A stretch of 64,000 bases of DNA from Chloroflexota bacterium (GTDB taxonomy: Bacteria; Chloroflexota; Anaerolineae; B4-G1), in assembly GCA_034189605.1 (NCBI GenBank), contig JAXHUO010000015.1, forward strand, positions 8,321 to 72,320, read 5' to 3'. Below the pieces are notes generated by a model. It was not told the origin of the DNA and made no database searches. It saw only the letters and a list, made by a program, of their open reading frames with translations. Both the position numbers and the translations under genes were made by a program. Of the stretch, positions 13,343 to 55,155 are shown piece after piece. Numbering within the stretch: the first letter of the stretch is position 1; each line of letters opens with the position of its first letter.

Positions 13343-16117
13343 ATGACCGACAGACTTTCCAGAACCTACAACCCCAAGGAGCACGAAGAATGGCTCTACC
13401 AGTGGTGGGAGGAGCGGGGCTACTTTCGCCCCGAAAAGCAAGTTGAACTGGGCCTGGTCTCCGAGGGTGGCCCGCGCTGGTGCATCACCATGCCGCCCCC
13501 CAACGTCACCGGCGCGCTCCACCTGGGCCACGCCATGGTCGCAGCCGTCGAAGACCTGATGACTCGCTACTATCGCATGCGCGGTTTCGCTACCCTCTTT
13601 CTCCCTGGCTCCGACCACGCCGGGATCGCTACCCAAAACGTCGTGGAGCGGGAACTAGCCAAGGAAGGGCTCACCCGCCACGACCTGGGACGCGAGAGAT
13701 TCATCGCCAAAGTGTGGGAGTGGAAGCACGTCTACCATCATCGCATCACCGATCAGACTAAGCGGCTGGGTGTCTCGTGCGACTGGACAAGGGAGCGCTT
13801 CACCCTCGATGAGGGGCTGAGCCACGCCGTACGCACCGCCTTCACGCGCCTCTACGAGAAGGGTCTCATCTACCGGGGGACTTATTTGGTCAACTGGTGT
13901 CCCCGTTGCACCAGCGCCATCTCCGACCTGGAGGTGATCCCGGAAGAGCGTGCCAGTCACCTCTGGCACGTCCGCTACCCCATCCTCAACGACGATTGGG
14001 ATGGGCCAGCCCCCTCCCAATCCCCCTCAAATCCGGGGGGGAGATCCCCAGGGGGTTGGGGCAGCGGTAAATGGGCTGAGGGCGCGACCGAGTTCATCGA
14101 GATGGCCACCACCCGCCCAGAGACCATTCTGGGCGACACCGGTGTCGCCGTTCACCCCGACGATCCCCGCTGGCGATATCTGATTGGCAAGACCGCCATC
14201 CTGCCGGCAATCGGCCGCCGCGTTCCCATCATCGCCGATGAAGCGGTGGATCCAGAGTTCGGCACCGGTGCGGTCAAAGTCACCCCTGCGCACGACCCTA
14301 CCGACAACGAAATCGGCATCCGCCACGGCCTGGAGGCTCCCAACGTCATGACTGACACAGCCCAGATGAACGAGTTGGCCGGCCCCTACGCCGGACAAGA
14401 CCGCTCCGAGTGCCGTCGCAACATCGTTGCCGACTTTGAGAAGGAAGGATTGCTCGTCAAAGTCGAGCCCTACTTTCACGCTGTGGGCACCTGTGAGCGC
14501 TGCCATACCGATATCGAACCGCGCATCTCCACCCAGTGGTTCGTCAACGTAAAGCCGCTGGCCGAGGCCGCAATGGATGCGGTGCGCGAGGGTAGCACGA
14601 CCATCATCCCGGAGCGGGAGGAGCGGCGTTTCTTCCACTGGATGGAGAACATCCGCCCGTGGTGTATCTCGCGTCAACTGTGGTGGGGCCACCGCATCCC
14701 CGTCTGGTACTGCGACGACTGCAGTGAGCAGACCTGCGAGATAGTTGACCCTACCGCGTGTGCACATTGCGGTAGTGCGAATATCCACCAGGATGAGGAT
14801 GTCCTCGACACCTGGTTCTCATCTGGCCTATGGCCCTTCTCCACCCTCGGCTGGCCCGACACTAACGCGCCGGATTACCGCCGCTACTATCCTACTGACG
14901 TGCGCGAAACCGCCTACGAGATACTGTTCTTCTGGGTGGCACGGGAGATGATGCTGGGCATAGAACTGACCGGTCAGACCCCCTACTCCACCGTCTACCT
15001 GCACGGCCTGGTGCGCACCGAGGAGGGCAAAAAGGTCAGCAAGTCAATGGAGGATATTGACGAGTACGACCCATTGAACATCATCGAGAGGTACGGCTGT
15101 GACGCGCTCCGTTATACCCAACTGACCAGTTCCACGCCGGGTCTGGACATGAGCCTTGATCTACGTCGCCTGGAAAGCGCCCGCAATTTTACCAACAAAA
15201 TCTGGCAAGCGGCGCGATTCTCCCTCTCCAATCTGGATACTGGGCACTCAATATTGGATATTGACCAATCTCTAATCTCTAATCTCCATCTTCCCGACCG
15301 GTGGATTCTCTCGCGTCTAAATCATCTAATTCAGGACATGATTCGCCTTTTCGAGAGTCACCAGTACGGCGAGGCGGGCCGCCAGATTCACGACTTTCTG
15401 TGGGGGGAGTATTGCGACTGGTACATTGAGGCCAGCAAAGTGCGCCTCTACGACGAGACGGCGGACAAGTCCGTTCCGCGGGCCGTCCTGCTCCACGTGT
15501 TGGAGACAGCGCTGCGATTGCTACATCCCTTTATGCCATTTGTCACTGAGGCTATCTGGCAAGCACTGCCCAGTGAAACACGTAGGGGCGAGGCGCTGAT
15601 CATGGCCCGTTGGCCGGAGCCGGCCCCCGCATTCCTGGACGACGAAGCCGAGGGGCAAATGGAATTAGCGATGGCGCTCATTCGGGGTATTCGTAACCGG
15701 CGGGCTGAGTACAACGTGATCCCCGGCAAGCGCATCCCGGCTCTCATTGCCGCTGGCGACGCTGCTCAGTGGTTGGACGAGCAACGCGCCGTTCTCTGCA
15801 CCCTGGCCAAACTAGACCCTGAACAACTCTCTGTCCAACCAACCATCCAACCGCCTGTCCAGGCAGCGACCATCGTCGCGGGCGACGTCGTCTGCTACCT
15901 GCCGCTGGCCGCGCTGGTGGACCTGGAAGCGGAGCATGAACGGCTGTCGTCGGAACTGGACAAAGTTGAGGCTCGTATTGCCCGCAGCGAGAATCTGCTG
16001 GCGGGGGAGTTTGCACAAAAGGCACCTGCGCACATCGTTCAGCGAGAACGGGACAAACTGGCCGGCTTACAAATCGAACAAGCGAAACTAGAGGAGCGGC
16101 TGGCAGCGCTGGAGTAG
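13343..16117 (+). CDS. valS: valine--tRNA ligase
   Basis: 924 aa. HIGH-type motif PPNVTGALHLGHA, KMSKS-type motif KVSKSM, ATTRPET editing-domain motif and a C-terminal coiled coil. SD GGGAGGAG lies upstream. Confidence 0.97.
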   Translation: MTDRLSRTYNPKEHEEWLYQWWEERGYFRPEKQVELGLVSEGGPRWCITMPPPNVTGALHLGHAMVAAVEDLMTRYYRMRGFATLFLPGSDHAGIATQNVVERELAKEGLTRHDLGRERFIAKVWEWKHVYHHRITDQTKRLGVSCDWTRERFTLDEGLSHAVRTAFTRLYEKGLIYRGTYLVNWCPRCTSAISDLEVIPEERASHLWHVRYPILNDDWDGPAPSQSPSNPGGRSPGGWGSGKWAEGATEFIEMATTRPETILGDTGVAVHPDDPRWRYLIGKTAILPAIGRRVPIIADEAVDPEFGTGAVKVTPAHDPTDNEIGIRHGLEAPNVMTDTAQMNELAGPYAGQDRSECRRNIVADFEKEGLLVKVEPYFHAVGTCERCHTDIEPRISTQWFVNVKPLAEAAMDAVREGSTTIIPEREERRFFHWMENIRPWCISRQLWWGHRIPVWYCDDCSEQTCEIVDPTACAHCGSANIHQDEDVLDTWFSSGLWPFSTLGWPDTNAPDYRRYYPTDVRETAYEILFFWVAREMMLGIELTGQTPYSTVYLHGLVRTEEGKKVSKSMEDIDEYDPLNIIERYGCDALRYTQLTSSTPGLDMSLDLRRLESARNFTNKIWQAARFSLSNLDTGHSILDIDQSLISNLHLPDRWILSRLNHLIQDMIRLFESHQYGEAGRQIHDFLWGEYCDWYIEASKVRLYDETADKSVPRAVLLHVLETALRLLHPFMPFVTEAIWQALPSETRRGEALIMARWPEPAPAFLDDEAEGQMELAMALIRGIRNRRAEYNVIPGKRIPALIAAGDAAQWLDEQRAVLCTLAKLDPEQLSVQPTIQPPVQAATIVAGDVVCYLPLAALVDLEAEHERLSSELDKVEARIARSENLLAGEFAQKAPAHIVQRERDKLAGLQIEQAKLEERLAALE
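14006..14068. repeat. C-tract / G-tract low-complexity insert inside valS
   Basis: ccagccccctcccaatccccctcaaatcc followed by gggggggagatccccagggggttggggcagcgg. It encodes PAPSQSPSNPGGRSPGGWGSG, between the YPI and ATTRPET motifs. Confidence 0.6.
15251..15292. repeat. heptanucleotide tandem repeat, 6 units (42 nt), in-frame in valS
   Basis: Units are atattgg atattga ccaatct ctaatct ctaatct ccatctt. The tract encodes ILDIDQSLISNLHL. Confidence 0.75.
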
Positions 16118-28402: not shown

Positions 28403-29782
28403 GTGACCGATCAATCTCTTATTCCCCGTGCACTTGTCATCGGCGCTGGTATCGGCGGTATGCAAGCGGCCCTCGACATTGCTAATGCTGGCTACGACGT
28501 TGTCCTGGTTGAACGTCTCCCCTCCATCGGAGGGCGCATGGCCCAACTTTCGGAGACCTTTCCCACCCTGGATTGCTCCCAGTGCATCCTCACCCCCCGC
28601 ACTGTCGAGGTCGGCCATCACGAACATATCCGCCTGCTCACCTACTCCGAGGTCGAGGCGGTCGAGCCCCTTCTTTCCCCATCTCAGGTAGAGGGGCAGG
28701 GTAGGGGGGCAGGGTTCCGCGTGCGCATACGTCGTCACGCCGCCTACGTGGACTGGGACAAGTGCACCGGTTGTGGCCTCTGTCAGGAGAAATGCCCCCG
28801 CAAGGTGCCTTCCGGTTTCGAGCGTTATGCGGGGAAACGTAAGGCAATCTACACCCTCTCCCCCCAGGCAGTGCCGAACAAGCCAGTTATTGACCGCGAT
28901 AATTGCATCTTTTTCCAGCGGGGCAAGTGCAAAGCCTGTGAGCGGTTCTGCCCGGTGGGGGCGATTGACTATGACCAGGAAGACACGGTCATTGAGGAGC
29001 GGGTTGACGCGATCGTCCTGGCCACCGGCTATGACCTTTATGGATTGGATAACATGCCCGAGTATGGTGGTGGCAAGGTGCCGGATGTGATTGACGCGCT
29101 TGCTTTTGAGCGGCTGCTCTCCGCCTCCGGCCCCACCGCCGGCGAGATCCAGCGCCCCTCCGACGGGAGAGTTCCCCGCGAGGTTGTCTTTGTACAGTGC
29201 GCTGGTTCCCGCGATCCCGAAAAGCACCTGCCTTACTGCTCTAAAGTCTGCTGTATGTACATCGCCAAGCAGTCCATCCTCTACCGCCACCGGGTCCACG
29301 ATGGACAGGCATACATATTCTATATTGACATCCGCGCCGCAGGCAAGCGGTACGACGAGTTCACCCAGCGGGCTATGGAGGACGAGCACGTGATCTATCT
29401 GCGAGGCAAGGTCTCCCGTATTTTCCGCAAGAACGACAAGGTGATAGTGTGGGGAGCCGACACGCTCAGCGGGCAGCAGATACAGATCGCCGCCGACCTG
29501 GTGGTGCTGGCCCCGGCACTCTTGCCCCGCTCCACGACGCATCGGTTGGCCGAGATATTGGGGTTGCCAGTGGATGAGCATGGCTGGTTGCTCTCCCTCG
29601 ACTCAAACGCATACCCGGTGGAGACCGTTCGGCCCGGTATTTTCCTGGCTGGCGCTGGCACGGGGCCGATGGACATCCCAGAGACGGTTGCCCACGCCAG
29701 CGGTGCGGCAGCCCAGGTACTCAAACTTTTCTCCCCTGGTTCGGTCGGAAACCAACCAGAGCCTTTGCAGGAGGAACAGTAG
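28403..29782 (+). CDS. hdrA: HdrA-like FAD/FeS oxidoreductase, core plus inserted ferredoxin domain only
   Basis: 459 aa. FAD motif ALVIGAGIGGMQAALD, TLDCSQCIL, inserted ferredoxin CTGCGLCQEKCP and C-x2-C-x3-CP, CSKVCCMYIAKQ, LAGAGTGPMDIPETVAHASGAA. It lacks the N-terminal Cys domain and the C-terminal 2x[4Fe-4S] domain of canonical HdrA. Confidence 0.85.
   Translation: MTDQSLIPRALVIGAGIGGMQAALDIANAGYDVVLVERLPSIGGRMAQLSETFPTLDCSQCILTPRTVEVGHHEHIRLLTYSEVEAVEPLLSPSQVEGQGRGAGFRVRIRRHAAYVDWDKCTGCGLCQEKCPRKVPSGFERYAGKRKAIYTLSPQAVPNKPVIDRDNCIFFQRGKCKACERFCPVGAIDYDQEDTVIEERVDAIVLATGYDLYGLDNMPEYGGGKVPDVIDALAFERLLSASGPTAGEIQRPSDGRVPREVVFVQCAGSRDPEKHLPYCSKVCCMYIAKQSILYRHRVHDGQAYIFYIDIRAAGKRYDEFTQRAMEDEHVIYLRGKVSRIFRKNDKVIVWGADTLSGQQIQIAADLVVLAPALLPRSTTHRLAEILGLPVDEHGWLLSLDSNAYPVETVRPGIFLAGAGTGPMDIPETVAHASGAAAQVLKLFSPGSVGNQPEPLQEEQ
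28667..28714. repeat. pyrimidine-arm / purine-arm low-complexity insert (48 nt) inside hdrA-like 1
   Basis: ccccttctttccccatctc aggta gaggggcagggtaggggggcaggg. The purine arm has a 14-nt periodicity. It encodes PLLSPSQVEGQGRGAG at the position of the conserved GYVGN segment. Confidence 0.65.
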
Positions 29783-29783
29783 G

Positions 29784-31538
29784 ATGGCTCGCATCGGCAT
29801 ATTCGTCTGCCACTGTGGGCTCAACATCGCCAGTACGGTAGACGTGCAGCGGGTGGCCAAGACTCTGTACAACTACCCTGGCGTTGTCTATGCCACCGAC
29901 TACAAGTATATGTGCTCCGACCCTGGTCAGGCACTCATCCAGCAGACTATCGCGGAGCACGACCTGGATGGGGTAGTCATCGCCGCCTGTTCCCCAGCAA
30001 TGCATGAATCCACCTTCCGCAAGGCCGCCGCCGCTGCCGGGCTAAACCCCTACCAGGTGGAGATCGCTAATATCCGAGAGCAGGTCTCCTGGCCGCACCA
30101 AAACGCGCCGGAGGAAGCCACTCGCAAGGCCATTGAGATAGTGCGCACCATCGTGGAGAAGGTGCGTTACGATGAACCGCTGGTGCCACTCACGCTGCCC
30201 ATCATCAAGCGGGTGTTGGTAGTCGGTGGAGGCATCGCCGGGCTGACTTCTGCCCTGGACGTAGCCACTGCTGGGTACCCGGTGACCCTCGTCGAGCGGT
30301 TAGACCACCTGGGCGGGAAGATGACGCAACTCTCTCGCCTCTACCTCAACTTTGACGCCAGCAGGGGCTTGCTGGAGGAACGTGTCGCAGCCGTTGTCCA
30401 CCATCCCCTCATTCAGGTGCTCACGAACGCAGAGGTGATAGAGTTTGGGGGATACGTGGGCAATTTCACGGTGGAGGTTTCGGGTTCCAGGTTCCAGGTT
30501 TCGGATTTGCCCAATACGGAATATGAAACTTTGAAACCTGAGACTCACTGTCTAGATGTGGGGGCGGTGGTGCTCGCCACCGGCTTTGACCTCTACGCTA
30601 AGGCGAACTTGCCAGAGTACGGAGGCGGGCGGTACCCCGACGTGGTGGATAGCCTCCAGTTCGAAGCCATGCTGCAAGCGGGGGAGATCCGCTGTCCTTC
30701 GGATGGCCGTGTGCCTCGGGAGGTCGTCTGGGTGCAATGCGCCGGTTCCCGCGATCCGAACCTCCACCGGCCTTATTGCTCCAAAATTTGCTGTATGTAC
30801 GTCGCCAAGCAGACCATTGCCTACCGCCGCGCAATTCCCGAAGGACAGGCTTATGTTTTCTACATTGATATCCGCTCACAGGGCCGTGGGTACGACGAGT
30901 TCGTCCAGCGGGCGATGGAGGAATTCGGCGTCGTCTATCTGCGTGGTAAGGTGTCCCGGCTCATCCAGCGGGATGGGCGGTTGGAGGTATGGGGCGCCGA
31001 CACTTTGAGCGGCCAATCAATGCGCGTGGAAGCCGATCTGGTGGTGCTGGCGATGGCGACTGTGCCCAGTTCCGGGAGCGAGACATTGGCCCGCCTGATG
31101 CGCGTAGCCACCGACGAAAGCGGGTTCTTAGCCGAAGCCCATCCCAAACTGCGCCCGGTGGAGAGCCTTACGGCAGGCATTTATCTGGCTGGTGCAGCCC
31201 AGTTCCCCAAGGACATCCCGGAGACAGTGGCTCAGGCATCAGGCGCAGCGGCCAAGGTTCTCCAACTTTTTGCCCAGCGTGAGATGGTGGCCGAGCCGAC
31301 CGTCGCCATCGTAGACGAGGAACTATGCGCGGGCTGTGGGCGTTGCGTGCCGGCCTGCCCCTATGACGCCCGAGAACTGGACCCCTGGAGACCCCTGGCT
31401 ACGGTCAACGTGGCCCTCTGTCAGGGCTGTGGGGCCTGTGTCGTCGCCTGCCGGAACAAGGCGACTATCGTACGCAACTTGACGCCAGAGCAGGTGCTGG
31501 CGATGGTAGAAGCGGTGTTGCCAAACCCCAATGATTAA
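29784..31538 (+). CDS. hdrA: HdrA-like FAD/FeS oxidoreductase with N-terminal Cys domain and C-terminal ferredoxin domain, lacking the inserted ferredoxin
   Basis: ATG 29784 lies 1 nt after the upstream TAG, with GGAGGA upstream. N-terminal IFVCHCGLNIAS...YMCSDPG...AACSP, FAD motif VLVVGGGIAGLTSALD, CSKICCMYVAKQ, and C-terminal CAGCGRCVPACP plus CQGCGACVVAC. The track extension from 29574 overlaps hdrA-like 1 and is rejected. Confidence 0.85.
   Translation: MARIGIFVCHCGLNIASTVDVQRVAKTLYNYPGVVYATDYKYMCSDPGQALIQQTIAEHDLDGVVIAACSPAMHESTFRKAAAAAGLNPYQVEIANIREQVSWPHQNAPEEATRKAIEIVRTIVEKVRYDEPLVPLTLPIIKRVLVVGGGIAGLTSALDVATAGYPVTLVERLDHLGGKMTQLSRLYLNFDASRGLLEERVAAVVHHPLIQVLTNAEVIEFGGYVGNFTVEVSGSRFQVSDLPNTEYETLKPETHCLDVGAVVLATGFDLYAKANLPEYGGGRYPDVVDSLQFEAMLQAGEIRCPSDGRVPREVVWVQCAGSRDPNLHRPYCSKICCMYVAKQTIAYRRAIPEGQAYVFYIDIRSQGRGYDEFVQRAMEEFGVVYLRGKVSRLIQRDGRLEVWGADTLSGQSMRVEADLVVLAMATVPSSGSETLARLMRVATDESGFLAEAHPKLRPVESLTAGIYLAGAAQFPKDIPETVAQASGAAAKVLQLFAQREMVAEPTVAIVDEELCAGCGRCVPACPYDARELDPWRPLATVNVALCQGCGACVVACRNKATIVRNLTPEQVLAMVEAVLPNPND
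30476..30538. repeat. nine-heptad (63 nt) dyad-symmetric repeat element, in-frame in hdrA-like 2
   Basis: Units are ggtttcg ggttcca ggttcca ggtttcg gatttgc ccaatac ggaatat gaaactt tgaaacc. The first and last units are near reverse complements, and the arms can pair with G:U pairs. It encodes (E)VSGSRFQVSDLPNTEYETLKP. Confidence 0.8.
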
Positions 31539-36243: not shown

Positions 36244-38979
36244 ATGCCAATCACTCTTGCTCCTGCACAGACCAAAGTCGCTCGCCGCGAACGTTTTCTC
36301 CTCCTCATCGCTGCCGCCTTCCTCCTCGCTGGCACCCTCACCCTCGCAGCCCACGATTCTCCATTCTCCATTCTCCATTCTGCATTGGCCATTCTCTCAT
36401 TTATCATCTCTTTCGCCGTGGCTCACTTTTTTCTCTCTCGCTATCTCCCCCACCGTGACCCATTCCTGCTGCCTATGGCAGCGCTCCTGACCGGCTGGGG
36501 GCTCCTGCTCATCGGACGACTGGCGATCAATTTCCTCCTGCGCCAGGCCGCCTGGCTGCTCATATCCACTGCCGCACTCCTGGCCGTCGTTTGGCTGAGC
36601 CACAACCTGCGTTGGCTGCGCCGGTTCCGCTATACCTGGCTCTTTGGGGGGTTGGCGTTACTGGCGGCCACGCTCCTCTTCGGCGTCAATCCCTCTGGCT
36701 ACGGCCCGCGTCTCTGGTTGGGAGCCTGGGGTATCTACTTCCAGCCCTCGGAGCCGCTCAAACTCTTGCTGGTGGTCTACCTGGCCTCTTACCTGGCCGA
36801 GAAACGGGAATTGCTCGTCTCCGAGAGATGGAAAGTGGGACGCTGGCGTCTCCCCCCGTTGGCCTATGTCGGCCCGCTCCTGGCGATGCTCGGGCTGGCG
36901 ACGATACTCCTGGCCTGGCAGCAGGACCTGGGCGCGGCGATACTGTTTTTCTTCACCTTTCTGGCGATGCTCTACCTGGCAACCGGCCAGTGGGAATACA
37001 TCGCCACTGGGCTGGTGCTCTTCCTACTGGTGGGGCTGGCAGGCTACCGGATCTCCGGTCGGGTGGCGCTGCGGATAGATGGCTGGCTCAACCCCTGGCC
37101 GGAGGCGGCCGACCGTGCCTTTCAAATCGTGCAATCACTGCTGGCCTTTGGAACAGGGGGTGTTTTCGGACAGGGGTTGGGGTTGGGCCACCCTGGCTAC
37201 ATCCCTGCCGTGCACACTGACTTTGTCTTCGCCGCCATTGGGGAGGAGTTTGGCCTGGCGGGGACACTGGTCATCGTCGCGTTATACGGGGTGCTGGCTC
37301 TGCGCGGATTCCGCATCGCTGCCCGCGCCTCTCGCCCATTCGAGCGATTCCTGGCTGCGGGTCTCACTGCCGGGTTGGTCATCCAGGCCTGGGTCATCAT
37401 GGCCGGGAACGTAAAACTGGCCCCCATTGCTGGCGTGACTCTCCCCTTTGTCTCCTACGGTGGCAGTTCCCTCCTGACCTGTTTTATCACCCTTGCTCTT
37501 CTCCTCCGCATATCCAGTCCAACGTCCAATGTCCCTAGTCCAAAGTCCAAAGTCCGATACCCGACGTCGCCAGTTCCCTTGTCCCCTTGTCCCCTTGTTC
37601 TCCCCTATCCCCTTCTTCATCTGGCCTGCGCTCTCTCCCTGGCCCTGGCGTTACTGGCAGCCACCTGCGGCTACTGGGGCATCGTCCGCGCTAGTTACCT
37701 GCGCGGACGCGACGACGACCCCCGCCGTGTCCTCTACGAGCAGCACATTGTGCGGGGACGCATCCTGGACCGGGATGGAGCCGTGTTGGCCAACGTGGAT
37801 GTGGCTGGCGACGGGACCGTGACGCGCCACTATCCAATCCCGGAGGCTGCGCCGGCTGTCGGTTACGCCAGTCTGCGCTATGGCACCGGGGGTATCGAAG
37901 CGGCCCTAGACGCCGAACTGCGAGGGGAGGCCAACCGCAGCGATTGGCAGGCCACGTGGGATGAACTGCTTCACCGCCCACCCCACGGTCTTGATGTCCA
38001 ACTGACACTTGATGCAGCGCTGCAGGTGGAATCTCAGGAAGCGCTCGCAGGTCAGGCTGGGGGAGTCGTGCTGCTCGACGCTGCCACTGGCGAGATCCTG
38101 GCTTTGGCCTCAAGCCCCACCTTCGATCCGGCGCGCCTCGACGAGGAATGGGAGAGATTGAGTGAAGACCTATCCGCGCCGCTGGTTAACCGCGCTACGC
38201 AGGGTCTCTACCAGCCAGGGGCTGCCCTCCAGACCATTGTCCTGGCCGAGGCACTGAACGAGAGACTGGACAGTCTCTCAACCCCAATCACCAACGCGAC
38301 AGCGACGCTTAGCGTGAACGGCGCGCGGCTGGGCTGCAGCACGGCTCTCTCTGAGCCATACACGCTGGCCGATGCCTACGCTGCTGCTTGCCCGGCACCT
38401 TTCGCGGATTTGGGTGAGCGGTTAGGAGCCACTGGGCTGGTAGAGATGGTAGATCATTGGACACTCACCACTCCGCCCTCATTGGAGATCCCGACCGAGG
38501 CGGCCGACTGGAACGCGAAAGTGCTCTCGACCACGGCAGCAGTGCGGGCCGAGGCCATAGGTCAGGGGAGGCTGACTGTCTCACCACTACAGATGGCGCT
38601 GGTGGCAGGGGCGCTCGCCAATGAGGGACAAATGCCTGCTCCGCGTTTGGTGCTCCGTGTTCAAGATATGGAGGGAGGCTGGCGAGAACATAGTAGCGCC
38701 GCGTTATCCAGCACCGTCATCTCGCCGGCGATAGCCAAAAGTATGTTGGGTGCCTGGCCGGCATACGGTTCGACCACCTCCACCGCAGGCAGCTCAGACG
38801 TGATGGGGCACTATGGAGTGGCCATCGCGGGACAGAAACAAGAACCTCACGTCTGGTTCCTGGGTGTAGCACCGGCCAAAGCCCCGCGCTATGCCATCGC
38901 CGTGCTTATTGAGCGAGCCGCCGATCCTCAGCAGGCTGTCATAGTTGGCACGGCTCTGCTGCGAGCAGCGTCCCGGTAG
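36244..38979 (+). CDS. fusion protein: SEDS (FtsW/RodA) peptidoglycan polymerase plus class B PBP-like domain with degenerate transpeptidase motifs
   Basis: 911 aa. The SEDS part has FQPSEPLKLLLV, PAVHTDFVFAAIGEEFG and LPFVSYGGSSLL. A low-complexity linker spans ~37500-37620. The PBP part aligns with PbpA-type proteins, but SxxK reads AALQ, SxN reads ACP and KTG reads QKQ. Confidence 0.85.
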   Translation: MPITLAPAQTKVARRERFLLLIAAAFLLAGTLTLAAHDSPFSILHSALAILSFIISFAVAHFFLSRYLPHRDPFLLPMAALLTGWGLLLIGRLAINFLLRQAAWLLISTAALLAVVWLSHNLRWLRRFRYTWLFGGLALLAATLLFGVNPSGYGPRLWLGAWGIYFQPSEPLKLLLVVYLASYLAEKRELLVSERWKVGRWRLPPLAYVGPLLAMLGLATILLAWQQDLGAAILFFFTFLAMLYLATGQWEYIATGLVLFLLVGLAGYRISGRVALRIDGWLNPWPEAADRAFQIVQSLLAFGTGGVFGQGLGLGHPGYIPAVHTDFVFAAIGEEFGLAGTLVIVALYGVLALRGFRIAARASRPFERFLAAGLTAGLVIQAWVIMAGNVKLAPIAGVTLPFVSYGGSSLLTCFITLALLLRISSPTSNVPSPKSKVRYPTSPVPLSPCPLVLPYPLLHLACALSLALALLAATCGYWGIVRASYLRGRDDDPRRVLYEQHIVRGRILDRDGAVLANVDVAGDGTVTRHYPIPEAAPAVGYASLRYGTGGIEAALDAELRGEANRSDWQATWDELLHRPPHGLDVQLTLDAALQVESQEALAGQAGGVVLLDAATGEILALASSPTFDPARLDEEWERLSEDLSAPLVNRATQGLYQPGAALQTIVLAEALNERLDSLSTPITNATATLSVNGARLGCSTALSEPYTLADAYAAACPAPFADLGERLGATGLVEMVDHWTLTTPPSLEIPTEAADWNAKVLSTTAAVRAEAIGQGRLTVSPLQMALVAGALANEGQMPAPRLVLRVQDMEGGWREHSSAALSSTVISPAIAKSMLGAWPAYGSTTSTAGSSDVMGHYGVAIAGQKQEPHVWFLGVAPAKAPRYAIAVLIERAADPQQAVIVGTALLRAASR
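36356..36397. repeat. heptanucleotide tandem repeat, 6 units (42 nt), in-frame at the SEDS N-terminus
   Basis: Units are attctcc attctcc attctcc attctgc attggcc attctct. The tract encodes (D)SPFSILHSALAIL. Confidence 0.85.
37517..37600. repeat. heptanucleotide tandem repeat (6 units, 37517-37558) followed by an 8-nt TCCCCTTG-type repeat, forming the SEDS-PBP linker
   Basis: gtccaac gtccaat gtcccta gtccaaa gtccaaa gtccgat, then ...gttcccttg tccccttg tccccttg ttc. Together they encode SPTSNVPSPKSKVRYPTSPVPLSPCPLVL. Confidence 0.85.
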
Positions 38980-41694: not shown

Positions 41695-41703
41695 CGCATG
41701 GGC

Positions 41704-41766
41704 ATCGCGAAGCGCGGATAGCGAATCAGTAACTAGTGTGGAATCGGGATTCGCAGGTTCGCAAAT
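41704..41766. repeat. nine-heptad (63 nt) dyad-symmetric repeat element in the leuC-leuD spacer
   Basis: Units are atcgcga agcgcgg atagcga atcagta actagtg tggaatc gggattc gcaggtt cgcaaat. GCGAATC (41721-41727) is inverted as GATTCGC (41748-41754). Confidence 0.65.
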
Positions 41767-41788
41767 TTGGACTCTTTAGGAGAAACAT

Positions 41789-53592: not shown

Positions 53593-55155
53593 GTGGCGAG
53601 AGGCGGGGATAGGTTGTGGGTGGCCGCAGTTACGGCACTGGGCGGCTACCTGCGGGCCTGTCAGATCGGTGGCAAAGGGCTCTGGATAGACGAGGCGTTC
53701 AGTGTCTGGCTGGGCTGGCAACCTGTGGGGGAGATGTTGGGCTGGCTGGTCCGCATTGACCAGCATCCGCCACTCTACTATCTACTGCTGCACTTTTGGA
53801 TGATCCTCGGCGATGACCCATCTACCGTGCGCGCACTCTCCGCTCTGTGCGGCACGCTGACCATCCCCGTGGTTTACCTGCTGGGCCGCCGCCTGGCCGG
53901 CGACAAGGTAGGGTTCCTCACTGCGCTGATCCTGGCTGTTTCCCCTTTCCACGTGCGCTTTGCCCAGGAGACGCGCATGTACACGCTGCTGACGCTGAAC
54001 GCTTCGCTGGCGCTGTATGCGCTGGCCTGGTTGTTCACTGACCCCCGCTCGGCCGAAGCACGGCTGGGCCGGCAGTTCGTAGACTTTTGGCGGGGCTGGC
54101 GAACCACCCGTCGCCGCCCTCCCATGTGGGTCATTGAGACCGACCTGGCCTGGCTGGGTTACGTGCTCTTCACGGCGGCGATGCTGTTGACTCATAACAC
54201 AGCAGTCTTCTTTCCCGTCGCCACAAATATTATCGTGCTGCTCTTGGTCCGCCTGCGAATCGCGAATCGCGAATCACGAATCACGAATCACGGGTTCTTA
54301 CGCAACTGGCTCCTGGCCCAGGTAGGCGTGTTTCTGTTATGGAGCCTCTGGCTCCCGGCCTTTGCCGTCCAGGGCGTAGGTGTCTACCGGGAGTTCTGGC
54401 TGCCTGCGCCAACGTGGAGCACTGTCGCCGGCGCGGTAGGGGCCTTTGTGAGCGACTTCCTGCCGTTGCCGCCCGCCGGTCTCTGCGCGGTAGGGGTGCT
54501 GTACGCGGGGTTGGCGCTACTGGGGCTGGTTCACTTCCGCCGCCGTCCGGCGCACGTCTTGTTTCTGCTCGTCACCTTCACAACGCCATTCGTGGGCGAG
54601 TGGCTGGTCAGCCTATACCGGCCCATCTTTTACGATCGCACGCTCATCTGGGCATCGCTCCCGCTTTACCTGCTGCTGGCCGCTGGCATACGCCAGTTGC
54701 ATCACCGGTCTTATATTATCGGCGTCATTCTGGTGGTGCTGGTGGTCAACACCCTTTCGCTGCGGGAGTATTACGTCAACTTCGAGAAGGAGCAGTGGGA
54801 TGACGCAGCACTGTTTGTGGCGGGGCGGGTGGAGGCCGGTGACTTGATTCTGTTTAATGCTACCTGGACGCAGATTCCATTTGACTATTACTTTCGCCGG
54901 TACGAGCGATCGGTGGCCGAGCACGGCGTGCCGGTGGATTTGTTTGACCGGGGTGTCCTGGAGCCAGAGATGTCTACAGACGATCTCCCCCGGCTGCGGG
55001 TGCTCGTCCGGAGCCACGAACGAGTGTGGTTGGTCTACAGCCACGACTGGTACACTGATCCGCAGGGATTGATCCCCCTGGCGTTGGAGGAGGAACTTGA
55101 TCTGCTCGACCGGTGGGACTTTTATGGCCTGCAGGTGCGGCTGTACGGGAGATAG
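53593..55155 (+). CDS. glycosyltransferase family 39-like (ArnT/PMT_2) membrane protein
   Basis: I prefer GTG 53593, because the track start at 53560 overlaps the predicted -10. GLWIDEAFSVWL and HPPLYYLLLHFW are typical of PMT_2-type GT-C enzymes. A soluble C-terminal domain follows. Confidence 0.75.
   Translation: MARGGDRLWVAAVTALGGYLRACQIGGKGLWIDEAFSVWLGWQPVGEMLGWLVRIDQHPPLYYLLLHFWMILGDDPSTVRALSALCGTLTIPVVYLLGRRLAGDKVGFLTALILAVSPFHVRFAQETRMYTLLTLNASLALYALAWLFTDPRSAEARLGRQFVDFWRGWRTTRRRPPMWVIETDLAWLGYVLFTAAMLLTHNTAVFFPVATNIIVLLLVRLRIANRESRITNHGFLRNWLLAQVGVFLLWSLWLPAFAVQGVGVYREFWLPAPTWSTVAGAVGAFVSDFLPLPPAGLCAVGVLYAGLALLGLVHFRRRPAHVLFLLVTFTTPFVGEWLVSLYRPIFYDRTLIWASLPLYLLLAAGIRQLHHRSYIIGVILVVLVVNTLSLREYYVNFEKEQWDDAALFVAGRVEAGDLILFNATWTQIPFDYYFRRYERSVAEHGVPVDLFDRGVLEPEMSTDDLPRLRVLVRSHERVWLVYSHDWYTDPQGLIPLALEEELDLLDRWDFYGLQVRLYGR
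54255..54296. repeat. heptanucleotide tandem repeat, RCGAATC x5 plus one degenerate unit (42 nt), in-frame in the GT39-like gene
   Basis: Units are gcgaatc gcgaatc gcgaatc acgaatc acgaatc acgggtt. The tract encodes RIANRESRITNHGF. Confidence 0.85.

What the first reader, a model, noticed from the sequence alone, without database searches (positions are those of the whole stretch)
30476..30538. 63-nt hairpin-forming heptad element sits where HdrA normally carries its inserted ferredoxin domain
In hdrA-like 2, the conserved GGYVGNFTVEV is followed by 21 codons made of nine heptads, and then directly by LDVGAVVLATGFDLY. In hdrA-like 1, and in canonical HdrA as I recall it, about 75 residues of a Cys-rich ferredoxin insert occupy this position.

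The first unit (ggtttcg) and last unit (tgaaacc) are near reverse complements. The inner arms GGUUCCAGGUUCC / GGAAUAUGAAACU can form 11 of 13 pairs when G:U pairs are allowed. The mRNA should therefore carry a long stem-loop inside the ORF. The element may mark, or have mediated, a domain deletion.
Basis: partly seen in the sequence, partly recalled or inferred. Interest (0 to 1): 0.6.

Follow-up and report, generated by a model that had tools for sequence, protein, structure and literature searches.

The report
In-frame palindromic heptad repeat in HdrA loop
The 63-nt element is a translated, decaying copy of a short palindromic repeat that colonises tolerant protein loops in this Anaerolineae lineage; it sits in the scar of a ferredoxin domain that was lost long before and it did not cause that loss.

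Summary
At 30476-30503 there are four tandem heptads (GGTTTCG GGTTCCA GGTTCCA GGTTTCG). About 21 nt downstream lie three inverted units (GAAACTT TGAAACC TGAGACT). All are read in frame inside an HdrA paralog, exactly where solved HdrA carries its 77-residue inserted ferredoxin domain.

All Anaerolineae orthologs examined (about 95 DNA loci, 59-89% protein identity) lack the domain. Many have a repeat-free 14-15-residue turn, so the deletion is old and the repeat came later.

The hairpin of this copy is marginal (z -1.4 to -2.1). However, 21 of 53 ortholog loops fold far better than shuffles, often with unrelated 7-8-nt units. The fold is equally strong on both strands, which points to a DNA palindrome rather than a selected mRNA structure.

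The two closest orthologs (87-90% DNA identity on both sides of the loop) carry different repeat families at this site. The genome has 157 strong period-7 arrays. About 70% lie inside long open frames.

Four other GGTTYCR hairpins are translated in frame in other proteins: an ABC ATPase linker, two FGE-sulfatase proteins and a membrane protein.

The closest analogues are in-frame Rickettsia palindromic elements and cyanobacterial heptamer repeats. The spreading mechanism is unknown.

The parts
29784..31538 (+). hdrA-like 2 gene (584 aa from ATG 29784, MARIGIFVCHCG). It has the N-terminal Cys domain, the FAD domain and the C-terminal 2x[4Fe-4S] ferredoxin, but no inserted ferredoxin domain.
   Evidence: ORF and translation. 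Pfam Pyr_redox_2, FAD and Fer4 hits. Alignment to solved HdrA 8RVU/5ODC: query 3-233 and 251-582 match, chain 244-320 is missing.
28403..29782 (+). hdrA-like 1 gene (459 aa). It has the FAD domain with the inserted 2x[4Fe-4S] ferredoxin, but no N-terminal Cys domain and no C-terminal ferredoxin. It is the tandem paralog directly upstream.
   Evidence: tblastn of hdrA2 against the window matches residues 140-218 and 259-505, with about 116 aa between them instead of 40. The translation shows CTGCGLCQEKCP and CKACERFCP.
30476..30503 (+). 5' arm: four tandem heptads, GGTTTCG GGTTCCA GGTTCCA GGTTTCG, translated as (E)VSGSRFQVS.
30504..30524 (+).
   Evidence: Unpaired or weakly paired in the MFE fold. 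This part differs most among orthologs that carry the same element.
30525..30545 (+). 3' arm: three inverted units, GAAACTT TGAAACC TGAGACT, translated as ETLKPET.
   Evidence: It pairs with the 5' arm in the predicted fold.
30468..30551 (+). Whole predicted stem-loop, including the outer stem ACGGTG / CACTGT. The inserted stretch relative to minimal orthologs is about 30477-30551 (residues 232-256).
   Evidence: RNA fold -30.2 kcal/mol, z -1.99. The same stem is kept in 89.8% of cells across nine 93-nt orthologs. The AF2 model has pLDDT <50 at residues 238-251, between strands 227-236 and 253-259.

Best explanation
The element is one copy of a class of short palindromic repeats. Each arm is a tandem array of 7-8-nt units. 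This class is abundant in this Anaerolineae genome and its relatives and, unusually, lives inside genes.

Here it occupies the turn of a beta-hairpin in HdrA paralog 2. That turn is the scar left when the inserted ferredoxin domain was lost in an ancestor of the clade. Paralog 1, encoded directly upstream, kept the domain.

The turn is solvent-exposed and tolerates almost any stop-free sequence whose length is a multiple of three. Repeats that land or grow there therefore survive and are translated, here as SGSRFQVSDLPNTEYETLKPETHC.

Shown: the position, the old domain loss, translation-compatible frames in all loci, hypervariability and family turnover at the site, strand-symmetric palindromy, other in-frame copies in the genome, and the genome-wide excess of period-7 arrays.

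Inferred: the element has no role in enzyme function. The palindrome is a legacy of how the repeat arises (inverted duplication or insertion at the DNA level) and is now decaying. Copy number changes by slippage.

How the same units spread to many loci and genomes is unknown. It could be transposition, template switching or ectopic conversion.
For: 1. Old domain loss. Non-Anaerolineae relatives (40-47% identity) carry 96-104 residues with two Cys clusters between GYVGNF and GAVVLATG. All Anaerolineae orthologs carry 11-91 residues without those clusters; the shortest repeat-free turns are about 14-15 residues.

2. Hypervariable loop. Among 120 homologs of at least 71% identity, the loop ranges from about 0 to more than 50 extra residues. 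It shows recurrent peptide motifs that are translations of heptad DNA.

3. Different repeat units at the same site in other lineages: ATTCGTAR, CAACGAG, CCAATCTA, GAGTAGA, TGGAAGA and ACAAGNA, mostly as inverted pairs.

4. Hairpin tendency of the class. 21 of 53 loops have z < -2, against 2 of 53 control segments from the same genes (p = 0.001). The tendency is strand-symmetric.

5. Fast turnover. The window protein forms a 97%-supported trio with P0003 and P0004, and the three carry three different repeat families. DNA identity is 87-90% on both sides of the loop, with no recombination tract visible. P0027 and P0030 are identical apart from one LKPET unit.

6. Genome-wide class. There are 538 period-7 arrays. 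Of the strong arrays, 157 are period 7, against 11 of period 6 and 8 of period 9. 70% lie in stop-free frames of at least 900 nt, against 74% for random positions. Major units occur 59-134 times, against 0-2 for reversed-pattern controls.

7. Other GGTTYCR hairpins are in frame in a double ABC ATPase linker (peptide SGSRFQDSRSNLKLETPKP), two FGE-sulfatase proteins and a membrane protein.

8. In the genome that holds L003, ATTCGTAR units occur 56 times against 0 for the control, with about 10 or more loci as inverted pairs.

9. The loop is disordered in the AF2 model.
Against: The GGTTYCR family itself is small in this genome. The two-unit motif is no commoner than its reversed control (17 vs 15 exact matches). 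The hairpin arrangement occurs at 4 loci against 1 for the control. Two of the other copies lie in paralogs and may be a single event.

Copies share only the repeat units, not a full-length consensus, defined ends or target-site duplications, so mobility is not demonstrated.

Only 16 of 321 period-7/8 arrays in the genome have an inverted partner nearby, against 3 for the control. Most arrays are therefore not hairpins.

Nine orthologs with the same 93-nt element keep about 90% of stem pairs, slightly more than shuffles (3 of 500). This leaves some room for selection on structure.

Gene assignment of arrays rests on long open frames, not on a gene caller. No RNA or protein data exist for translation of the loop.
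Confidence: 0.72

Rival explanations
1. Purely local origin. The linker is a low-complexity spacer that arose in place by replication slippage and a fold-back (inverted) duplication. It is unrelated to similar tracts elsewhere.
For: Unit-number differences between identical proteins: P0027 vs P0030, and a 24-nt unit present 3 vs 5 times in L011 vs L124. The GGTTYCR motif is not enriched in the genome. Copies lack a shared full-length consensus or target duplications. The outer stem pairs host codons ACGGTG with CACTGT/CACCGC at the 3' end, as a fold-back copy would.
Against: The same units in the same arm-loop-arm layout are read in frame in four other proteins of this genome. Unit families (ATTCGTAR, CCAATCT) are shared by different genomes and many loci, with 0-2 control hits. 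Three unrelated families occupy the site in genes 87-90% identical in DNA, which slippage alone cannot produce.
Confidence: 0.14
2. Functional mRNA stem-loop. The hairpin is kept by selection to pause ribosomes between the two halves of the FAD domain, or to control mRNA decay or processing.
For: Predicted -29 to -30 kcal/mol stem. The stem is kept in 89.8% of cells in nine orthologs; 3 of 500 shuffles reach that, and 5 pairs change on both sides. This copy relies on 7 G:U pairs, so it folds better as sense RNA than as antisense RNA or DNA.
Against: z is only about -2 for this copy. Many orthologs have short loops with no structure. Across 23 hairpin loops, sense and antisense are equally stable and G:U counts are 71 vs 83. 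The RNAalifold covariation term is 0.01. The shuffle control is known to be exceeded by related sequences without any structure.
Confidence: 0.08
3. The repeat mediated, or is the direct footprint of, the deletion of the inserted ferredoxin domain.
For: It sits exactly at the deletion junction. Palindromes and repeats are known to promote deletions (general knowledge).
Against: The deletion is shared by all Anaerolineae orthologs down to 59% identity. Many have repeat-free 14-15-residue turns, and the rest carry unrelated repeats. On the protein tree, the GGTTTCA-type loop is confined to sub-clades nested among orthologs with short, repeat-free turns, and all rows already lack the domain.
Confidence: 0.03

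Closest known systems
Rickettsia palindromic elements (RPEs)
   Same: Both are palindromic repeats inserted in frame into unrelated protein-coding genes. Both are translated as extra surface peptides compatible with the fold (as reviewed in PMC10969869). Here the in-frame copies lie in HdrA2, an ABC ATPase linker, FGE-sulfatase proteins and a membrane protein.
   Different: RPEs are about 100-150 bp with a family consensus over their whole length and a conserved encoded peptide. Here the elements are 55-115 nt. Copies share only 7-8-nt units, with variable unit number and unrelated loops. The phylum is also different (Chloroflexota).
Heptamer tandem repeats of cyanobacteria (STRR) and the TAACTGA repeats of Beggiatoaceae
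   Same: Both show many dispersed tandem arrays of specific 7-nt units, several unit families per genome, and units shared between genomes (PMC4679880).
   Different: Those repeats are reported as mostly intergenic: 22 of 24 mapped sets in Microcystis (PMC4679880). Here about 70% of strong arrays lie in long open frames, and some form inverted pairs.
MITEs and REP/BIME elements
   Same: Both are small non-autonomous hairpin-forming repeats. In the genome of L003, many ATTCGTAR hairpins look intergenic and lie next to gene ends.
   Different: No fixed length, no terminal consensus and no target-site duplication were seen.
Canonical HdrA (8RVU, 5ODC) and sHdrA (6TJR)
   Same: The host protein aligns over its full length to solved HdrA at E = 1e-153 to 1e-131. 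It shares the N-terminal Cys domain, the FAD domain, the C..C...CC cluster motif and the C-terminal ferredoxin.
   Different: It lacks the inserted ferredoxin domain and the DCSxC motif. These are present in the upstream paralog, which in turn lacks both terminal domains.

Membership tests
HdrA (heterodisulfide reductase subunit A-like flavoprotein): the host gene | FAD-binding thioredoxin-reductase-like domain with GxGxxG | tested here: met
   Pfam Pyr_redox_2, FAD_oxidored and NAD_binding_8 at residues 143-268. Aligned to 8RVU_a.
HdrA (heterodisulfide reductase subunit A-like flavoprotein): the host gene | Inserted 2x[4Fe-4S] ferredoxin domain between the two halves of the FAD domain | tested here: not met
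   Chain residues 244-320 of 8RVU_a have no counterpart; query residues 234-250 stand there. The same is true of all Anaerolineae orthologs.
HdrA (heterodisulfide reductase subunit A-like flavoprotein): the host gene | N-terminal Cys-rich domain and C-terminal 2x[4Fe-4S] ferredoxin | tested here: met
   Residues 3-233 align from chain residue 13, including CHCG. Fer4 and Fer4_7 at 508-560.
Heptamer tandem repeats (STRR-like) | Tandem array of a 7-nt unit | tested here: met
   TRF: period 7, 3.7 copies, 84% matches.
Heptamer tandem repeats (STRR-like) | The same unit repeated at many dispersed loci of the genome | tested here: inconclusive
   The GGTTYC two-unit motif occurs 17 times vs 15 for the reversed control, and hairpin layouts occur at 4 loci vs 1. 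The feature is clearly met for other units of the genome: 59-134 hits vs 0-2.
Heptamer tandem repeats (STRR-like) | Predominantly intergenic location | tested here: not met
   This copy is inside an ORF. 70% of strong period-7 arrays lie in open frames of at least 900 nt, against 74% for random positions.
Rickettsia-type palindromic elements (in-frame palindromic repeats) | Palindromic and inserted in frame in several unrelated genes | tested here: met
   Inverted arms. Other in-frame copies at C45, C55, C66 and C97.
Rickettsia-type palindromic elements (in-frame palindromic repeats) | Copies share a consensus over the whole element (about 100-150 bp) | tested here: not met
   Copies share the units only. 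Loops and lengths differ, 54-70 nt in this genome.
MITE | Terminal inverted repeats with target-site duplication and a fixed length | tested here: inconclusive
   Arms are inverted repeats. No duplication or fixed ends were seen among six copies, and a CGGTG/CACCG motif near some ends is not significant.
REP/RAYT system | Co-occurrence with a RAYT (IS200/IS605-like Y1 transposase) | not tested

The most novel reading that the evidence does not exclude
Anaerolineae harbour an undescribed, sequence-specific, actively propagating class of 7-8-nt-unit palindromic repeats. These preferentially persist inside genes, in frame, in surface loops of conserved proteins. At hotspots such as the HdrA2 turn they replace one another within about 10% DNA divergence. 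That would imply a dedicated insertion or replacement mechanism (a hairpin-recognising enzyme or templated copying). It would also be a steady source of new protein-loop sequence.
Probability: 0.35. Interest if true: 0.7.

Novelty: new variant of a known kind. Interest (0 to 1): 0.5.

Why it matters
For HdrA biology the element itself is probably irrelevant. The useful result is that the inserted ferredoxin domain was lost once, long ago. Its scar is a free loop. The tandem paralogs have complementary domain sets.

For genome biology the site is a clean natural experiment. One orthologous turn in about 100 related genes has been filled again and again by different short palindromic repeats, always in frame.

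In-gene, translated palindromic repeats have so far been documented mainly in Rickettsia. Heptamer arrays have been described mainly as intergenic features of cyanobacteria and Beggiatoaceae. A lineage that combines both would help answer two questions: how such repeats spread, and how much they contribute to protein-loop evolution.

Tried and rejected
1. Recombination import of the loop. Sliding DNA identity shows the window gene is closest to L161 and L162 on both sides of the loop, with no imported tract.

2. Translational bypass or frameshift. About 95 Anaerolineae-type loci were checked and every one in which the loop could be located reads through it in frame without a stop. The 14 loci my first pattern missed were motif variants, not frameshifts, and L060 holds only the 3' side.

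3. Selection on the mRNA hairpin through G:U bias. No sense/antisense asymmetry was found.

4. Population variation in reads. Only assembler contigs were available. They show the element identical at 110x and 84x depth and cannot show rare variants.

5. Terminal motifs or target duplications among the six copies. Nothing convincing was found.

7. Literature searches for heptamer or palindromic in-frame repeats in Chloroflexi. No paper describing them was found in the held library. This is not proof of absence.

8. It has a 7-bp GCGAATC/GATTCGC stem but folds no better than shuffles, z -0.05.
Full report
**1. What is in the sequence**

The ORF 29574-31538 most plausibly starts at ATG 29784 (MARIGIFVCHCG). 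This is where all 120 database homologs begin to align. It encodes a 584-residue HdrA-like flavoprotein.

Directly upstream, ending at 29782, lies a 459-residue paralog, hdrA-like 1 (28403-29782). It matches only residues 140-218 and 259-505 of hdrA-like 2. Between those blocks it carries about 76 extra residues with two Cys-cluster motifs.

At 30476-30503 the + strand reads GGTTTCG GGTTCCA GGTTCCA GGTTTCG. TRF reports period 7, 3.7 copies, score 38. A three-unit pattern is unique in the window and absent from 100 shuffles.

After a 21-nt non-repetitive stretch come GAAACTT TGAAACC TGAGACT. These are inverted versions of the same unit.

There are 24 codons, not 21, between V232 and L257. The 11-of-13 pairing claim is correct.

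**2. The domain position**

phmmer against PDB aligns residues 3-233 and 251-582 to solved HdrA (8RVU_a, E = 6e-153; also 5ODC, 7BKB). Chain residues 244-320, the inserted 2x[4Fe-4S] ferredoxin domain, have no counterpart.

An AlphaFold2 model built on 67 homologs has mean pLDDT 71. It places two long strands at 227-236 and 253-259. Residues 238-251 between them fall below pLDDT 50. The element therefore encodes the disordered tip of a beta-hairpin that stands where the domain used to emerge.

**3. The deletion is old and the repeat came later**

Relatives from other phyla (Bacteroidota, Desulfuromonadota, Planctomycetota and others; 40-47% identity) carry 96-104 residues with both Cys clusters between GYVGNF and GAVVLATG.

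All Anaerolineae-type orthologs found in genomes and metagenomes lack them. That covers about 95 loci at 59-89% identity, all encoded downstream of an hdrA-like 1 gene wherever the flank is present.

Many of these orthologs have a plain turn of 14-15 residues between the two motifs, for example TVKVETPSGEKSFDV or TVEVETPAGARTEEV.

The domain was therefore lost before this clade radiated. On the protein tree the heptad element appears only in sub-clades. This removes the suggestion that the repeat mediated the deletion.

**4. The loop is a hotspot for short palindromic repeats**

Among 120 homologs of at least 71% identity, the loop varies from almost nothing to more than 50 extra residues. Its peptide motifs (SGSRFQVS, LKPETLKPET, GNWETGKL, NLPIYQSTD, GFVDS...ESTNL) are translations of 7-8-nt DNA units in their three phases.

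At the DNA level other lineages carry quite different units at the same place:
- (ATTCGTAR)n...(YTACGAAT)n in L003, L089, L090 and L093.
- (CAACGAG)n...(CTCGTTR)n in L035.
- CCAATCTA arrays in L084, L133 and L162.
- GAGTAGA/TCTACTC in L085.
- TGGAAGA/CCTTCCA in L095.
- ACAAGNA/TTGTCTN in L112.
- A 24-nt unit in L011 and L124.

Folding each loop of at least 20 codons against 200 dinucleotide shuffles gives z < -2 for 21 of 53 loops, some as low as -6. Only 2 of 53 equal-length control segments taken 300 nt downstream in the same genes reach that (Mann-Whitney p = 0.001).

The window's own copy is at the weak end: z is -1.9 to -2.1 for 91-93 nt and -1.4 for the 63 nt alone. As DNA it has no significant fold (z -0.43), because seven of its pairs are G:U.

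**5. Is the mRNA hairpin selected?**

Nine orthologs carry the same 93-nt GGTTTCA-type element in the same register. Their consensus fold has 25 pairs, and 89.8% of cells pair. Only 3 of 500 column shuffles reach that figure, and five pairs change on both sides.

However, the RNAalifold covariation term is 0.01. The tool also warns that related sequences can beat the shuffles without any structure.

The stronger test is strand symmetry. Over 23 hairpin-type loops from several unit families, the sense strand is the more stable in 12. The mean difference is 0.04 kcal/mol (Wilcoxon p = 0.82). G:U pairs number 71 in sense folds and 83 in antisense folds.

The palindromy is thus a property of the DNA, not something maintained specifically in the transcript. 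The loop is in frame and stop-free in every DNA locus examined, so it is read through.

**6. Turnover**

A tree built without the loop columns places the window protein in a 97%-supported trio with P0003 and P0004. It shares 92% identity with P0004, its closest row.

The three carry GGTTYCR, ATTCGTA-type and GGGAAACT/CCAATCTA repeats respectively. Their genes are 89.5% and 87.1% identical to the window gene in DNA, evenly on both sides of the loop. Nothing suggests an imported recombination tract.

The GGTTTCA-type 93-nt element is shared, with the same length and register, by the larger neighbouring clade. It is therefore probably ancestral, and it was replaced in the two sisters.

Other near-identical proteins differ only by unit number or by wholly different loops. 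P0027 and P0030 differ by one LKPET unit of 15 nt. P0038, P0050 and P0056 have wholly different loops.

**7. The element belongs to a genome-wide class**

In the 4.73-Mb genome, TRF finds 538 period-7 arrays at score 30 or more. That exceeds period 6 (213) and period 9 (486). Among strong arrays (score at least 45, at least 28 nt), period 7 has 157, period 8 has 50, period 6 has 11 and period 9 has 8.

The main units are CTCCATT, CCAATCT, GTCATTT, ACGTTTC, TCATTGT and CCAAATC. The four of these that were counted (CTCCATT, CCAATCT, GTCATTT, ACGTTTC) each occur as two-unit motifs 59-134 times, against 0-2 for reversed-pattern controls.

Seventy percent of strong period-7 arrays lie within a stop-free frame of at least 900 nt, against 74% for random positions. 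The arrays are therefore not excluded from genes.

In the window itself, arrays lie in ValRS (15267-15286), in the FtsW-transpeptidase fusion (36356-36401, 37516-37555, 37576-37598) and in a PMT_2 glycosyltransferase (54256-54292).

Inverted partners are the exception: 16 of 321 arrays, against 3 for a control.

**8. The GGTTYCR family specifically**

This family is small. The two-unit motif is not enriched (17 vs 15 for the reversed control). The arm-loop-arm layout occurs at 4 loci against 1 for the control.

Still, the other copies have 2-4 units per arm. Four are read in frame:
- C55:22915-22987, in the linker between the two ATPase domains of a double ABC protein. The peptide is SGSRFQDSRSNLKLETPKP, almost the HdrA2 peptide.
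- C66:25194-25253 and C97:23654-23709, at the same site of the FGE-sulfatase domain in two paralogs.
- C45:50762-50818, in a 741-residue membrane protein.

Copies share units but not loops, lengths or recognisable ends.

In the genome that holds L003, ATTCGTAR units occur 56 times against 0 for the control. About 10 or more loci there are inverted pairs, several apparently intergenic. The same unit occurs in a third genome and 17 times in this one. Unit families are thus shared across genomes, which slippage from random seeds would not give.

**9. Reading**

The best-supported account is as follows. A DNA-level palindromic short-unit repeat landed or grew in a freely variable surface turn. It is translated as a harmless extra loop. 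It is now decaying, which explains the weak hairpin.

It resembles Rickettsia palindromic elements in being palindromic and in frame in unrelated genes (PMC10969869). It resembles cyanobacterial and Beggiatoa heptamer repeats in its unit structure (PMC4679880). It fails the defining tests of each: there is no whole-element consensus, and it is not intergenic.

I found no description of such repeats in Chloroflexi in the held literature.

The mechanism of spread is open. A fold-back or template-switch origin is hinted at by the outer stem, which pairs host codons ACGGTG with the element's 3' end. I could not show this to be more than chance.

**10. Limits**

- Gene context of arrays rests on open frames, not on a gene caller.
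- Only assembler contigs, not reads, were available for the source samples.
- No RNA or protein data were available.
The family could therefore not be counted in relatives, and no transposase search was possible.

Noticed in passing
window 28403-31538: The two tandem HdrA paralogs have complementary domain sets. Paralog 1 keeps the inserted ferredoxin and the DCSQC motif but lacks the N-terminal Cys domain and the C-terminal ferredoxin. Paralog 2 is the reverse, with FDASRG where solved HdrA has LDCSMC. Where the upstream flank is held, the locus shows an hdrA-like 1 gene before hdrA-like 2. This suggests an obligate asymmetric heterodimer formed by subfunctionalisation.
   Followed up: partly
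window 28667-28714; L161 and L162 hdrA-like 1: hdrA-like 1 has its own variable insert at the equivalent GxVGNF turn. The window has EPLLSPSQVEGQGRGAG: 54 residues between motifs, against 43 in most orthologs. L161 and L162 have 68 residues there, with VDWETGKLGNWET...NLPIYQSTNLPIYQ. That is the same unit family that fills the hdrA-like 2 loop of L162.
   Followed up: partly
window 15267-15286, 36356-36401, 37516-37555, 37576-37598, 54256-54292: Further period-7/8 tandem arrays lie inside ValRS, inside the FtsW-transpeptidase fusion gene (three tracts) and inside a PMT_2 glycosyltransferase.
   Followed up: partly
genome contigs C66:25194-25253 and C97:23654-23709: Two NACHT/FGE-sulfatase paralogs carry a GGTTYCR hairpin at the same point of the FGE domain, between WYEA.AYC.WL and RLPTEAEW. 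The loops differ. It is unclear whether this was one insertion before the duplication or two separate hits.
   Followed up: no
L011 vs L124; P0027 vs P0030: Copy-number differences of in-frame repeat units occur between near-identical orthologs. The 24-nt unit GQALSEGV is present 3 vs 5 times, and the 15-nt unit LKPET 3 vs 4 times. The 15-nt unit equals one 7-nt plus one 8-nt unit, which keeps the frame.
   Followed up: no
window 30468-30473 with 30546-30551, and flanks of the C66 and C97 copies: A CGGTG/CACCG-like motif lies next to the arms in several GGTTYCR copies. In HdrA2 it makes host codons (T-V) part of the stem. This may be chance, a target preference or the trace of a fold-back copy.
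   Followed up: partly
window 41695-41775: The spacer after the aconitase-family (leuC-like) gene contains GCGAATC...GATTCGC, a 7-bp dyad. The region folds no better than shuffles (z -0.05).
   Followed up: partly
L179 2114-2358: In one relative, hdrA-like 2 is followed by a 1034-residue protein with Pyr_redox_2 and Fer4 hits, instead of the FhaA/FHA genes seen in the window, L161 and L162. The downstream context is therefore not conserved.
   Followed up: no
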